A stretch of DNA of 62,028 bases, counting the filler, from Platydemus manokwari (lineage: Eukaryota), in NCBI GenBank assembly GCA_037951405.1. It is 5 parts of 5 records of this genome, joined end to end, with 100 filler letters (N's around TTAATTAATTAA, not from the genome) between each part and the next. Parts side by side here need not be neighbours in the genome. Positions count along the whole stretch, not along the records: positions 31,062 to 42,035 come from JBBMOY011006636.1; 4 more parts are not named here. The stretch is one strand, 5' to 3'. The notes beneath the pieces were generated by a model. That model was given only the letters and a program-made list of their open reading frames with translations. It was not told the origin of the DNA and did not search any database. This document shows positions 31,195 to 41,395 of the stretch, piece by piece. The position numbers and the translations under genes were made by a program. Positions within the stretch are counted from its first letter, which is position 1, and each line of letters opens with the position of its first letter.

Positions 31195-31550
31195 ATATTA
31201 TGTTTTTGGCATTTTATTTAAAACAAACTTCTTAAAATATGAAAATTAAAATTCGTCGAGCATATCAAAATGAATAATGATAATAATTATCAGAATGGAA
31301 TTCATCACTGTAAATAAAAATGTTTAATTTTAATTAATGATAGATTTTATATTTTGAAAAATTGAGTGTTTATTTATTACTATAATTGAATGGATTAATA
31401 TAATCGGCGGCGTTTTATCAAGCTCAAACATACCAAAGGCCAGAATTCAAAATCGTGCATCGTTATTTAGCCAAAATCTGTAAGAAATCGACTGAATCAA
31501 CTAAAAGTCAATTATGGAGAAAAACCACTGGAGAAACCAGACTCGACTGC
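31195..31550 (-). pseudogene. Copy A of small secreted-protein family (disrupted)
   Basis: ATG at 31305: MNSILIIIIIIHFDMLDEF*FSYFKKFVLNKMPKT*. About 240 bp upstream aligns with 37010-37245. Confidence 0.7.
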
Positions 31551-33008
31551 TTCATGAAAAGACTTTCGTCCTACCTCACTAAAATCTTGCTCGTAGTTAA
31601 GTTCTCATAACTCGTTGTTTCGTCTTGCAAACACTAAATATAAAGGCATTCATAATAACAATAATAAAATTCCCTTAATCGGAAATTTTTTCCTTATCTA
31701 AAATGATAAAGTTAAGAATATTTAAGCTTTTATTCTATATAAAATTTTTTACAAGTACTTGAATCCACCTCCAGAAATGATCTTTGAACCAAGATAAACG
31801 CGCTTGCCAATAAAAATTGATAATAAGTTTGAGAAGACCATACAGTCGCTCAGTTTACACTTAATAAAAAGGAAATAATAAATAAATAAACATAACAATA
31901 AGTATGTACAAAAAAGTCAACTATTTTTGGTCTTGGCTTCCCTATTATATATTAAACAAGGTATTGGGGTTAATTAGCCGCCTCAGGTCCTTTCCCGGGT
32001 GCATAATCATGTTTATATGACTGTTTAATTGACGAACTTGTCAGAAGTGAAGCCAAATATGAGGTTTCTTTTTGATCCATTTCTATTTGCTTAAATACAC
32101 TAACATTTTGAGAAACCCAAGGTCACAAACAACCAGCATTAATAACATGAACATTAACTGAATATATAGATTGCCTAGCAATATGTACATCAAATTTGAC
32201 ATACCTTTTGTGTTTACTCTCCAAGTGTTTCCTGAAGTTCTTTTGATCATAGCTATGAAGCTAAAAGAAAATTGAAGTGAGTAAATAATTGTGTTTTGGC
32301 GTAATAATTAAGTTTAGACCCACGGCCTTTTCTAAGCTAGCGCGATAAATAAATAATATACTTTCAGACAAAGTTCTTTACAATGTAGGTGCATATTATT
32401 AAATATTTAGGCCACTTATTCTCAAGATTTTTTGTGAAAATAAGTAATTTTTTTAATGTTGACCCATTAATTAAATTTCATTTTAAATTACATATATTTT
32501 TGAATTATTATCGATTGTAATTTGGTGATGAATTCGATAGCAATGCGTTTTAAAAAACCCAACAACAGCTATCACCGAAATAATCATTCAAATGATATAA
32601 CTATTTTCATTTTTGATTTTTAATTTGAACAAAACGATAAAGCAATTATGAGATTTTATACCAAGTTAAACATCTTGTATAACAAAAGATTATTTCGAAA
32701 TATAATACTTTTTCTTCTTCGATAATGGATAGAATATTGATATTTTAATCTTTATGGTTTGTGAGTAACGTTTGGGAAATATTATATTGTGTCACTGTAT
32801 AGGTTTGTCATGTGTTTTTATAAGAGATGAAATGATTATATTTTTATATGCTGATGTACATTTTTAGTAAATAATGAAAGAAATATTTAAATTATAATTC
32901 AGCAGTAAAATAAATTATCATCAACACAGTATTATATTATATTTCACAAGATAAGCAAAATTCTAATTTAATATTTATTTCAAATTAGCAGCACGAAAAC
33001 ATCATTTA

Positions 33009-33263
33009 TCATAACATTTTCTTCTTTGAATTTGCCATCTCAATTTTCTGATAGCCACCAAGTGCATTACCGATGCGAGCACAGTTTCCGAAAGCACATA
33101 TAGTTAAAGCGTCTATATAATTACAATTAAAAACAAGGGTGTAATGGGTACATGTTTTATTTGCCTTATTAAATAAAACCAACTTCTCAAACACTGAAAA
33201 TTGAAATGGCTCGAGCATATCTATTTGAATAATGATAATAATTATCACAATTGAATTCGTCAT
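33009..33263 (-). CDS. Copy B: intact 84-aa putative secreted Cys-containing orphan protein
   Basis: Hydrophobic N-terminus (MTNSIVIIIIIIQ), four Cys and a GGYQKI motif; frame and stop position are conserved with copy D. Confidence 0.6.
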   Translation of the reverse strand: MTNSIVIIIIIIQIDMLEPFQFSVFEKLVLFNKANKTCTHYTLVFNCNYIDALTICAFGNCARIGNALGGYQKIEMANSKKKML

Positions 33264-33569
33264 TGTAAATAATATATTTTAATTTTAATTTAAAAGATGG
33301 AAATTGAAATGAAATTGAGTGTTCATTTGTTACTGTACTTGGACGAATCAATATTATATTTATTTGATGTTTTATTATTGGAATTGATTTAGATAAACAA
33401 AATGAAAATGATTTATATCAAATATTCAAATTTGAGGTTTCATAAACCAATATTTTTTATCTGTGTTGTTTAAATTTTGTAATTTGTGTTATAATTTAGA
33501 ATAAATAATATTGTATTAAATTAATGAAAAATAAAAATTGTAAATATAACAAATCCAATCTTTACATGG

Positions 33570-37769: not shown

Positions 37770-39120
37770 AAATCAATGTTAAACATGATTATAAAAAATA
37801 ATTAATATGTTATGGTGATGTGTCTAGTTTCATAACCCGAAACCGATTCATCATAGCTTTAACTACCAAGCTAAGAAAGTTATTACCTAATTCAATAATT
37901 AGTGAGTATATTCTACAGTTTCTAAAAATACATGCAACTGTTTCTGGTTTTTTATTTTTAATTTGGGAGACTCTGGCAATTTTATCAATTAATCGCAGAG
38001 TGTAGGATTTTATTTATTTTCATAAATGATCTAATTGTGTTAATGGATGTCATTTCTTTGGTCAGAGAGACTTGATTACATGGGCATCCATGATGTTTTG
38101 TTCAGTACTCCATTATTTCGCCTGGTTATATATATTTTACAAGGATAATATCTAGGAACCAATTCCATTGTAGTCCAATAATAATTTGATTTCAGACTCT
38201 ATGTCCTTCTATGAGATAAATGAGCTTCAAATACACTATAATGGTACTGCATGAGTAGTATAAGTTTATGTTTGTCAGCCACTACTAATAATATATCTTT
38301 AACATTATAATATTTTAATAACTCTTCATATATAAAAAATATTGGTTTAGATCTCCACTATAAAAACTTTGGAAATTTTTAATTCATTTTATTCCATTCT
38401 ATTTCATTACACTCTATTTTCCAGATCTGTATCGAATTTCAATATCTTGTTGTTGAAACTTCATGACTCATTTAATTAATCTATTTGCACACATTTTCAT
38501 GATTCATAAGCCTTTTATGGAATCACGGTTAGTTTATAATATGATTGTGTGATCAAATATATATTTTCGAAAATTTGATTGCTAATGCTTCCCTTTCTAT
38601 AGTTAAATAATATTTTTTTAATTTGATAATTTTGCAATTGAAATAGTACATTTTTCTCTAATACTGTGCTAATAGAGTAAGCAAAATATTATAAATTTTC
38701 TATAGCAATTTGGAAGACTGTGAAAAGATCTAACTTCATCAATATTGTTTTGAGTTGGATATTTTAGTATTTTATACAATCGCACTGGGTTATCGCTATT
38801 AATCAACAATTTAGATCTGAAAACTATATTATCTAAAATATCTCAAAAATACATGTAAATCTCTTCGCAACTCGTTATGGTTAATCACACATTTGAGGAT
38901 CAGCACCTTAAAGTTTTAAACAGAATATAAGATAATCAGAAATACTGATTAACAAAACTACAAAAAGATAATTTTAAAACTTGAGTTATCCACTAAAACG
39001 ACTAGCAGTTATCCTTGGAATTCAATCACCTTTATTGTCCTATTGGATGTGCCTGCTCAATGACAAATTTGCTGAATTTGTTCATAGAAAGGTCTACTTG
39101 AAATTTTCCTCAAATCTCTA
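37770..39120 (-). mobile_element. Degenerate Ty3/gypsy pol (RNase H - integrase)
   Basis: RPF...DNKGD*IPRITASR (RNase H); HYSVFEAHLSHRRT*SLKSNYYWTTM...C (integrase zinc finger); IKNKKPETVA...ELGNNFLS...DTSP*H (integrase core). Confidence 0.7.
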
Positions 39121-41146
39121 ATAATTAATAGAGTACGATTATGAATGTTGAAAATAAAAACTCTTAAATAAATGAAGGAAAGAAACTAAACTTCACTGCC
39201 GTTGCAAAACAAGCGAACAGAATAAACTCCTCTAATCAGAGAAATACGTGTACATAGTTGGGCACTTTCTTGGATCTAATAGCAATAACTCCACATATTC
39301 TTTATTTAAGATCTCTGCGCGTATTATTTAAAATTCTTCTTTGATCGAATATAAATTTTTGTGTGTTCAGCGATAGAATTATTGAAGATTTACATGTAAG
39401 TTTTTAGGTGATTATCAAATGAGATTCTAATTGACTATTTATACTAATTCGATAACCAGACGGCTTATAATTCATACATTCTTTAATAATTTTCTAGATG
39501 TATCTTTACAGATTTAATTATCTATTAATTTACAATTATTTTTTTCTTTCTTAACAATAGTATTTACTCAATAATATAATAATAATTACAATTAACAACA
39601 ATAAATGATGATTGACTGTAATAAATAATCAACAATTATTATAAACTTTAAATAATCATTAGTCTAATAATGATTCATATAAATTATAGTTATTAAATAG
39701 TTAAAATCAATTTTTTTGTAATTAATGGCATTTTAAGAAAGTTCAAATCAATAAGAATTGATAAATTTGATTTTTTTCTTTCATAGTCAAATTATCTATG
39801 TTGCTGTAGAAGATAGAGTACTAATAATGAAAGAAACGCTAGATAAAGGTCTTTAAGACATGATGAGGAACAATCATTAGAGAAGCTACAAACTATGCAA
39901 ATAAAGAATGACAGCAATAACAAGAAATACTGAAAAAATAAGAGATATGAAAAAGGAGGAATACAACATGCGATAAATAATAAAAACTTACAGAGGCTTA
40001 AAATTATTAAAGAAAAGATATTTGTATAAAAAGTTTTATAACAATGAAATTTTGAACATCAAACAAATCTTGAACATCATACAATACAGTTGACGTACAT
40101 TATTTGTTTTGAATTTTATTATGGTATTTTAAAGCCCAAATATCATGAAATTTATCGATATCTTAAATATGGAACAGGATCGTACATTATAAATATTAAA
40201 AAAGAAGACATATAATGTTTTTTATATATAATGAATTTATATATTATGAATTTGATCTGTTGTATATTGATAATAGACATACTTCTCTCAATATTGAGGA
40301 CCACTATTTATACACTGTAATGTTTACCATATGAACAGCTTTATTAAAAATATCGAACCTATGACAAAAAAGAAAATAAATAAGAAATATATTTATATTA
40401 TTTGTATATTAGCAACAATTTGAAACTGCAAATCTATATTAATGAAAATAATACCCTTGAAATCTCAATAATAATAATGACAAATCTTTACGTAATTCGC
40501 AAAGAAAATCACTCACGATGAGGTCAGTGTACAAGATTTTGAAAACAGAATGAAGAGAAATCAAAAAGACTGATTAATAAAATGACACATAAGAAAAGCA
40601 TTGAAATTACCGACCAAAATTTTTACAAGAATTCATAGAATTCAGTCTCCTTTATAGAACCATTGGATGTGTCGTCTTCATGTCACGGATATTTGCTTTC
40701 AATTCAATTTCTTTGTGGATCGACTCATTTAAGAATTACCGTAAATATCTCATGTCATTGGCAATTATTTGATGTTGCTGATTGGTTAACAGCACGTGTT
40801 TATTGGTTTTGTGTGTATTGAAACTTTTTAGCGTTTTTCTTGGTTCTTGGGATCCTTTGACTAATTTCTTTTATACCCAACAATATTAATATGATACACC
40901 ATATAATATTTATTTAGAGTATCCAATTTAAGTTTCAATTTTGTAATGTATTGTCAAAAGATCAAATTTTAAAATTCTAAAATTATCTAAATCAATTCTA
41001 ACAACACAGCATTAAATAAATATAATAATGATATAATATATAATATAATATATTAATATAATATATTAATAACATTAACAAATGAAAACTCAATTTTTCA
41101 AATTCAAAAACTAATTCTCAAATTTTAATTATTAAATTTTATTTAG

Positions 41147-41395
41147 AATGATTCGACTGTGATACTTTCTTTCAGTATTCAATTAGATGTGCTCGAATAA
41201 TTTCAATTTCCATCTTTTGAGAAGTTTGCTTTTTTTAGTAAGCCAAATAAAACATGTGAACTTTACAAGGATATAATAAATTGCAATAATATAGACGATT
41301 TAACGAAAAGTGCTTTTAAAAGCTGCTCGGTTTACACCAATGACAATGGTGGTTATAGAAAAATTGGTGAAATTAAGTCTAAGAAGAACATATGA
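41147..41395 (+). pseudogene. Copy D of small secreted-protein family (inverted, frameshifted start, one internal stop)
   Basis: NDSTVILSFSIQLDVLE*FQFPSFEKFAFFSKPNKTCELYKDIINCNNIDDLTKSAFKSCSVYTNDNGGYRKIGEIKSKKNI* is collinear with copy B, including the 3' flank. Confidence 0.8.

What the first reader, a model, noticed from the sequence alone, without database searches (positions are those of the whole stretch)
31195..41395. Four-copy cluster of an orphan small secreted Cys-containing protein undergoing birth and death
Seen: within one 11-kb contig, four homologous segments (ATG at 31305-, 33263-, 37007-, and an inverted copy at 41147+) share an Ile-rich hydrophobic N-terminus and an FQFSxxEK...NKxxKT core. 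Copies B and D are collinear end to end (KTC, NC, xC, GGYxKI, SKK, same stop position) despite many amino-acid changes; only B is intact. I recognise no family. Inference: a fast-evolving lineage-specific secreted effector (mucus/rhabdite, antimicrobial, toxin or gland product). This is the best candidate for an undescribed system here.
Basis: partly seen in the sequence, partly recalled or inferred. Interest (0 to 1): 0.7.

Follow-up and report, generated by a model that had tools for sequence, protein, structure and literature searches.

The report
Fast-evolving flatworm small peptide family
The four look-alike genes are part of a roughly 50-copy family of tiny, positively charged flatworm proteins whose middle part evolves faster than the non-coding DNA around it; they are likely secreted defence peptides, and they match no known protein family.

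Summary
The four segments belong to a family of at least 51 loci on 42 contigs in this flatworm (triclad-type) assembly; 24 are intact single-exon ORFs, mostly 82-85 aa. The family is protein-coding: 7 of 35 copies carry an in-frame stop against 28-30 expected under neutrality, and frameshifts are about sevenfold rarer than in the flanks. It is under diversifying selection: codons 37-68 diverge more (pN 0.35) than synonymous sites (0.28) or flanks (0.21-0.22), and 0 of 277 null simulations reach the observed likelihood gain. Overall dN/dS is about 0.9, a mixture of constrained and fast sites. One outside homolog exists (75 aa, collinear, unnamed record). There is no Pfam, PDB or fold match. 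There are no TIRs, TSDs or poly(A) tails. Secretion is inferred from an 8-residue hydrophobic N-terminus and a conserved N-x-T sequon; there is no signal-peptide prediction and no RNA evidence. Best guess: cationic defence peptides in mucus; prey-directed or reproductive roles remain open. It is a new family of a known kind.

The parts
33009..33263 (-). Copy B: intact single-exon ORF, 84 aa (Ile-rich N-terminus, N35-K-T sequon, C56/C61 pair plus two private Cys, GGY motif, Lys-rich tail)
33264..33460 (-). Conserved upstream block of the family (likely promoter and 5' UTR), with a TATAAA at 33412-33417 and a TGTTTATCT motif at 33391-33399
   Evidence: alignment of copies; TGTTTAY at about -140 in 17 of 26 copies, TATAAA at about -160 in only 9 of 26; promoter role inferred
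32934..33008 (-). Conserved 3' flank with AATAAA at 32974-32979, about 30 nt after the stop (likely poly(A) signal)
   Evidence: AATAAA at +280 to +299 in 18 of 26 copies
31195..31502 (-). Copy A: broken 5' fragment (in-frame stop near codon 21; similarity to B ends near codon 37, next to a high-copy repeat at the contig end)
36897..37222 (-). Copy C: broken 5' fragment, sister of A; 3' half lost
41040..41471 (+). Copy D: full-length pseudogene in inverted orientation (coding remnant 41148-41395; short deletion after the ATG, in-frame stop near codon 19)
32570..32940 (.). MITE-like repeat directly downstream of B, shared with many other family contigs
   Evidence: (44-nt inverted arms, 86% complementary, in the C297225 copy)
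33570..36413 (+). Decayed LTR-retrotransposon remnant between B and C (direct repeats 33570-33670 and 36316-36413; RT fragment 34842-35240); not part of the family

Best explanation
This is a multigene family of small cationic proteins under birth-and-death evolution and diversifying selection in a flatworm, and its products are likely secreted defence peptides released into the body mucus. Shown: at least 51 loci; single-exon ORFs of mostly 82-85 aa; conserved flanks and N-terminal third; a hypervariable segment (codons 37-68) on a fixed scaffold (N35, T37, I50, D51, L53, C56, A57, C61, N66, G69, G70); a Lys-rich tail; local duplication in tandem and inverted arrangement; frequent gene loss. 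Inferred: the Ile-rich N-terminus sends the protein into the ER; N35 is glycosylated and C56-C61 form a disulfide; the mature part (net charge +4 to +13) folds as a helix plus beta-hairpin, binds anionic surfaces (microbial envelopes, sulphated mucus glycans) through its basic residues, and recognises changing microbial or parasite targets through the variable positions. Confidence by step: coding family about 0.97, diversifying selection about 0.85, secreted about 0.7, defence role about 0.4.
For: Copy number is stable across five queries. Stops: 7 of 35 copies against 28-30 of 34 expected, minimum 15 in 900 neutral simulations. Indels in 26 copies: 9 in 216 coding nt (4 frameshifting) against 48 in 245 flank nt (34 frameshifting). 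Codon grid with free synonymous rates: constraint gains 19.2 lnL (0 of 127 null simulations reach it), positive selection a further 7.8 (0 of 277). Divergence by region in 26 copies: codons 1-15 0.11, codons 16-36 0.17, codons 37-68 0.34, flanks 0.22-0.26. In 20 intact copies mature pN is 0.35 and pS 0.28; pN exceeds the flank distance in 187 of 190 pairs, which are not independent. The hydrophobic core (9-residue KD 3.2-3.9) has no charged or amide replacement among 17 changes in intact copies. N-x-T at 35-37 in 18 of 24; C56 and C61 together in 20 of 24 and lost together in 2. The outside homolog P0089 starts and ends in register, also with a hydrophobic N-terminus. Planarians have unrelated or untested families of small signal-peptide proteins in epidermal secretory vesicles (PMC4716842, 10.1101/179986; passages).
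Against: One-ratio dN/dS is 0.87-0.91 over codons 2-75 and 1.13 over codons 37-68, neither different from 1; positive selection rests on mixture models that ignore gene conversion between paralogs. Synonymous divergence in the mature segment (0.28) also exceeds the flanks, so part of the contrast may be flank constraint or homogenisation. The N-terminus has no basic n-region and no clear small-residue cleavage site, and a 19-residue hydropathy of 1.05-2.1 leaves a signal anchor possible. The contrast in hydrophobic-core changes is weak (0 of 17 polar in intact, 3 of 17 in 12 other copies). P0089 lacks both Cys and the Lys tail, so these are not ancient essentials. The models are weak (pLDDT 54 and 66, pTM 0.35 and 0.37). 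Nothing here measures antimicrobial activity or tissue of expression.
Confidence: 0.4

Rival explanations
1. Prey-directed secretion: peptides in pharyngeal or capture mucus that help subdue invertebrate prey, diversifying the way venom peptides do.
For: Conserved N-terminus and flanks with a hypervariable mature part under positive selection. The assembly holds three non-flatworm COX1 sequences that look mollusc-like (two) and arthropod-like (one), as gut content of a predator would (labels from recall).
Against: Only one conserved Cys pair and no match to toxin families (one member at E 0.11 to an omega-toxin model is chance level). No conserved dibasic pro-region site before the variable part. 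No fold match.
Confidence: 0.2
2. Reproductive gland product (seminal, copulatory-gland or cocoon protein) diversifying through sexual conflict or sperm competition in a hermaphrodite.
For: Positive selection with birth and death is typical of reproductive proteins (established knowledge, recalled); small and basic.
Against: No specific feature points to it; no expression data.
Confidence: 0.15
3. Not secreted: a type II signal-anchored microprotein, or a nuclear protein whose K-rich tail acts as an NLS (for example in conflict with selfish elements).
For: No basic n-region and no textbook cleavage site; 19-residue hydropathy up to 2.1; tails such as KPKKK and KRKKK resemble monopartite NLSs (NLS pattern recalled).
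Against: The hydrophobic core is only 8-10 residues and is followed by Q, D and E; N35 and T37 of a sequon and a Cys pair are constrained; P0089 has no K tail.
Confidence: 0.15
4. Non-coding repeat or non-autonomous transposon with a chance ORF.
For: About 50 copies; one-ratio dN/dS near 1; a MITE-like element lies beside many copies.
Against: Strong stop and frameshift avoidance; codon constraint; no TIR, TSD or poly(A) above shuffled levels in 25 copies; ragged boundaries; a collinear protein homolog elsewhere; no Rfam match.
Confidence: 0.02
5. The contigs come from prey or contaminant DNA rather than the flatworm.
For: The assembly is mixed: four distinct full-length COX1 sequences.
Against: One family contig carries M17 aminopeptidase exons whose best named hits are cestodes. 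Family contigs have 22-29% GC like the flatworm stretch of the window. The contig is covered at depth 10-20 and contains repeats at depth in the thousands, so it belongs to the dominant genome.
Confidence: 0.03

Closest known systems
Hessian fly SSSGP families (PMC2955719; abstract and outline read)
   Same: Tandem and inverted clusters; conserved promoter, UTRs and signal-coding region around a highly diversified mature region; positive selection.
   Different: No sequence relationship found; insect salivary effectors with an intron. Here the gene is single-exon, the scaffold residues of the mature part are kept, and the contrast between flank and mature region is milder.
Planarian ZPUF proteins (PMC4716842; passages and supplement listing)
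   Same: Novel small proteins (about 100 aa) with no known homology and a conserved signal peptide, in a triclad.
   Different: Identity with this family can be neither shown nor excluded.
Planarian PROG family (10.1101/179986; passages)
   Same: Planarian-specific duplicated secreted proteins, in paired loci, stored in epidermal vesicles.
   Different: PROG-2-5 is 16.8 kDa and the family has coiled-coil and internal repeats; this family is 74-94 aa (about 10 kDa) with no repeats seen.
Conotoxins and CS-alpha-beta defensins (recalled)
   Same: Small, cationic or Cys-containing, multigene, fast-evolving mature region; predicted helix plus hairpin.
   Different: Only two conserved Cys; no multi-disulfide framework; no Pfam, PDB or fold match.

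Membership tests
SSSGP-type conservation pattern (works like) | Clustered tandem and inverted copies | tested here: met
   6 contigs hold 2-4 copies in both orientations
SSSGP-type conservation pattern (works like) | Flanks and signal-coding region more conserved than the mature coding region | tested here: met
   0.11 (codons 1-15) and 0.22-0.26 (flanks) against 0.34 (codons 37-68)
SSSGP-type conservation pattern (works like) | Positive selection on the mature region | tested here: met
   one-ratio model alone is not significant
SSSGP (membership) | Conserved intron | tested here: not met
   Open single-exon frame from ATG to stop followed by AATAAA; no GTRAG donor shared by 8 or more of 26 copies
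SSSGP (membership) | Expression in a secretory gland | not testable with these tools
   no RNA run available
Planarian ZPUF | About 100 aa, no known homology, conserved N-terminal signal-like sequence | tested here: inconclusive
   Size 74-94 aa and lack of homology fit; signal peptide not predicted by any tool here
Planarian ZPUF | Sequence homology to zpuf-1 to -6 and expression in the epidermal lineage | not testable with these tools
   supplements give ids and primers only
Planarian PROG | Size near 17 kDa with coiled-coil and internal repeats | tested here: not met
   74-94 aa, no internal repeat seen in alignment A1; no coiled-coil predictor was run, and only one PROG size was seen
CS-alpha-beta defensins / conotoxins | Four or more conserved Cys in a fixed framework (recalled) | tested here: not met
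   Only C56 and C61 are conserved, in 20 of 24
CS-alpha-beta defensins / conotoxins | Fold similarity | tested here: inconclusive
   Weak models; best Z 3.9 and 2.1
MITE, SINE or retrocopy | TIRs, TSDs or poly(A) tails at unit ends | tested here: not met
   Longest shared words 7-11 nt against about 8 in shuffles, A-runs at most 6, in 25 copies
MITE, SINE or retrocopy | Neutral decay of any reading frame | tested here: not met

The most novel reading that the evidence does not exclude
A large effector-peptide family of a predatory triclad, on a previously undescribed two-cysteine helix-hairpin scaffold, diversifying in an arms race with prey or pathogens: a flatworm counterpart of conopeptides or gall-midge effectors, and the molecular basis of an unexplained bioactivity of planarian mucus.
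Probability: 0.3. Interest if true: 0.72.

Novelty: new member of a known kind. Interest (0 to 1): 0.5.

Why it matters
The active components of planarian mucus are largely unidentified (PMC11430875 says the composition and active component are not known; passages), and a proteo-transcriptomic toxin survey reports many candidates with no match or unknown function (10.1101/2025.01.09.632098; passages). A roughly 50-copy, positively selected, 84-aa family gives a short, synthesizable candidate set and a new small scaffold. Such single-exon microproteins are easily missed by annotation: only one homolog turned up among 1.84 billion representatives. The general pattern (taxon-restricted small secreted families in arms races) is well known, which caps the surprise.

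Tried and rejected
Homology: Pfam on B and on the 27 members of A3, word-indexed protein search with A1 (40-165 aa only), PDB sequences, ESM Atlas on B and P0089 and metagenome scans with A1 and P0089 gave nothing usable. Folds: two AF2 models, with no Foldseek match at E<=0.001 and best VIA Z of 3.9 and 2.1; absence shows no new fold. The M1a/M2a test (LRT 51) left two class weights at their start values, so I rely on the grid model with simulation. Longer spliced gene: rejected; no shared donor, stop and AATAAA follow the ORF, and the homolog is collinear end to end; an AG at codon 14 is present in 23 of 26 copies but lies inside constrained codons. Twenty of the 22 non-family contigs carrying the MITE-like repeat were fetched and hold no further family copy. 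Rfam: nothing near a gathering score. Literature: six topic searches (plus 104) and a search for four family motifs (0 papers) found no description of this family; one search was for the SSSGP comparison. The planarian mucus proteome paper was not held, and bioRxiv supplements are closed; either could contain these peptides. Three look-ups in earlier findings returned nothing. Complex prediction was not used: no partner is claimed.
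Full report
Setting. The window is a pack of five stretches; the finding lies in the fourth (31062-42035 = G000:C1006636, 26% GC). A Yju2 gene in another stretch has flatworms as all its best named hits. The assembly holds a COX1 that reads correctly under the flatworm mitochondrial code; calling it triclad rests on a recalled motif. It also holds three other COX1 sequences that look mollusc- and arthropod-like (recall), so the assembly is mixed. 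The family is nevertheless assigned to the flatworm: one family contig carries M17 aminopeptidase exons whose best named hits are cestodes, GC matches, and the contig lies at depth 10-20 with repeats at depth in the thousands.

Observation. Four homologous segments are there. B is an intact 84-aa ORF. D is a full-length inverted pseudogene with a short deletion after the ATG (41148) and a stop near codon 19. A and C are sister 5' fragments. A decayed LTR element separates B and C, and a MITE-like repeat follows B. The four copies are of three lineages: B's closest relative is on C1753452 (96%) and D's on C297225. This contig is therefore a piece of an older, mixed array rather than one fresh tandem expansion.

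Family size. Two DNA and three protein queries returned largely the same set; two short fragments seen only were not fetched. A profile found 51 loci on 42 contigs; counts are lower bounds, and a few close pairs may be alleles (one pair under 10% distance among 39). Twenty-four loci are intact by my rule (Met in the first two codons, 74-95 open codons, GGY-type motif). By reading, about 20 are broken and the rest are cut by contig ends. Six contigs hold 2-4 copies, in tandem, convergent and divergent arrangement. All copies share a core from about -200 to +330 around the ATG; flanks are shared patchily out to 1.5 kb with ragged ends. The MITE-like repeat was found on 33 contigs, 11 of them family contigs including the query's (my count), and in 11 of 20 whole-contig loci fetched. 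This suggests co-duplication in one or a few arrays (inference).

Is it coding? Yes. Of 51 loci, 39 had enough flank and 35 covered codons 2-71; 7 of these 35 have an in-frame stop, whereas neutral simulation on the same tree with the same site rates gives 28-30 of 34 (minimum 15 in 900 runs). Finding loci with a protein profile may favour open copies, but the DNA queries found the same set. In 26 well-aligned copies there are 9 indels in 216 coding bases (4 frameshifting, two of them at the last base) against 48 in 245 flanking bases (34 frameshifting). There are no TIRs, TSDs or poly(A) tails in 25 copies tested.

Selection. The one-ratio dN/dS on 24 intact copies is 0.87-0.91, not different from 1; only codons 16-36 fall significantly below 1 (0.50-0.53), and codons 37-68 give 1.13, not significant. 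This is the main result against the reading. A grid model that lets synonymous and non-synonymous rates vary resolves it as a mixture. Allowing omega below 1 gains 19.2 lnL over rate variation alone (0 of 127 null simulations reach this), and allowing omega above 1 gains another 7.8 (0 of 277; maximum 5.0). About 30% of sites fall in the fast class, chiefly 39, 44, 47, 48, 52, 59, 60, 62, 63, 67, 68 and the tail; constrained sites include F20, Q21, F25, N35, T37, I50, D51, L53, C56, A57, C61, N66, G69 and G70. Independently of codon models, codons 37-68 are more divergent (0.34) than either flank (0.22-0.26) and codons 1-15 least (0.11); mature pN is 0.35, pS 0.28. Gene conversion was not modelled and can inflate such tests.

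Protein anatomy. Residues 5-12 form an Ile-rich core of fixed length; residues 20 to the end carry net charge +4 to +13; N-x-T at 35-37 is present in 18 of 24; C56 and C61 occur together in 20, are lost together in 2 and singly in 2. AF2 models are weak (pLDDT 54 full-length, 66 mature) but both give a helix at about 47-59 followed by a beta-hairpin around N66-G69-G70; no fold match was found. The gene is single-exon as far as can be seen, with a conserved upstream block and AATAAA about 30 bases after the stop.

Outside relatives. A full HMMER search of 1.84 billion representatives gave one hit, P0089 (75 aa, E 2.2e-8), a singleton from a 517-base unnamed ENA contig. It aligns without gaps over 74 columns (probability 97.8), and all 16 of its matches in this genome are family loci. 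It keeps a hydrophobic N-terminus, F-x-K-F, YIDxLTxxAF and N-x-x-GGYKK, but has no Cys and no Lys tail. The family is thus older than this species, and the start codon and single-exon form are supported. The organism of P0089 is unknown.

Mechanism. I commit to secreted cationic defence peptides in mucus (0.4). Secretion (about 0.7) is inferred from the short hydrophobic core, the constrained sequon and the Cys pair; against it stand the missing basic n-region and cleavage motif. The defence role is inferred from charge, size and arms-race evolution. Prey-directed (0.2), reproductive (0.15) and non-secreted (0.15) readings remain; a non-coding repeat and prey origin are all but excluded. There is no expression evidence either way.

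Comparison with what is known. The evolutionary pattern matches Hessian fly SSSGPs (PMC2955719; abstract and outline), but there is no homology. PROG proteins (10.1101/179986; passages) are larger and repetitive. I also read passages of 10.1101/2025.01.09.632098, PMC11430875 and PMC13034038; none described such a family in what I saw. Topic searches and a motif search found no description; subscription papers, bioRxiv supplements and the mucus proteome paper were out of reach.

Verdict. A real, apparently undescribed protein family, about ten times larger than first noted, with a clear signature of constraint plus diversification. It is a new member of a known kind of system, with its role untested. 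Interest 0.5.

Noticed in passing
L068, L069, L070, L071 (G000 COX1 contigs): The assembly contains four distinct full-length COX1 genes: one flatworm-code, two mollusc-like and one arthropod-like (labels recalled), so G000 includes probable gut-content DNA.
   Followed up: partly
window 32570-32940; L077:1778-2096: A low-copy MITE-like repeat (44-nt inverted arms) is strongly concentrated on contigs of this gene family, at varying distance and in both orientations; it may have been co-duplicated or may promote the duplications.
   Followed up: partly
window 50742-51770 (-): Yju2/CCDC94 splicing factor read as one uninterrupted 342-codon frame; best named hits are flatworms.
   Followed up: partly
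window 43592-44113 and 47640-47957 (+): Exons of an ankyrin-repeat gene (weak Pfam Ank hits).
   Followed up: no
L091:99-1522 (-), contig C1111197: Fragmented ORFs beside a family copy that resemble the N-terminal part of a Polinton-type protein-primed DNA polymerase (recalled resemblance; Pfam gave no supporting hit).
   Followed up: no
L088:2717-4312 (+), contig C1248319: A 532-codon formin FH1-FH2 exon about 2 kb from an intact family copy; with the M17 aminopeptidase on C1590299 this shows that some copies sit beside ordinary host genes.
   Followed up: partly
window 33391-33399 and 32941-32960 region; most family copies: The motif TTTTGTTTATCT (overlapping forkhead- and GATA-like sites, recalled) occurs both about 140 nt upstream of the ATG and shortly after the poly(A) signal in many copies.
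   Followed up: partly
window 61117-61257 and 61888-62028: 141-nt direct repeat at 98% identity near the end of the last stretch.
   Followed up: no
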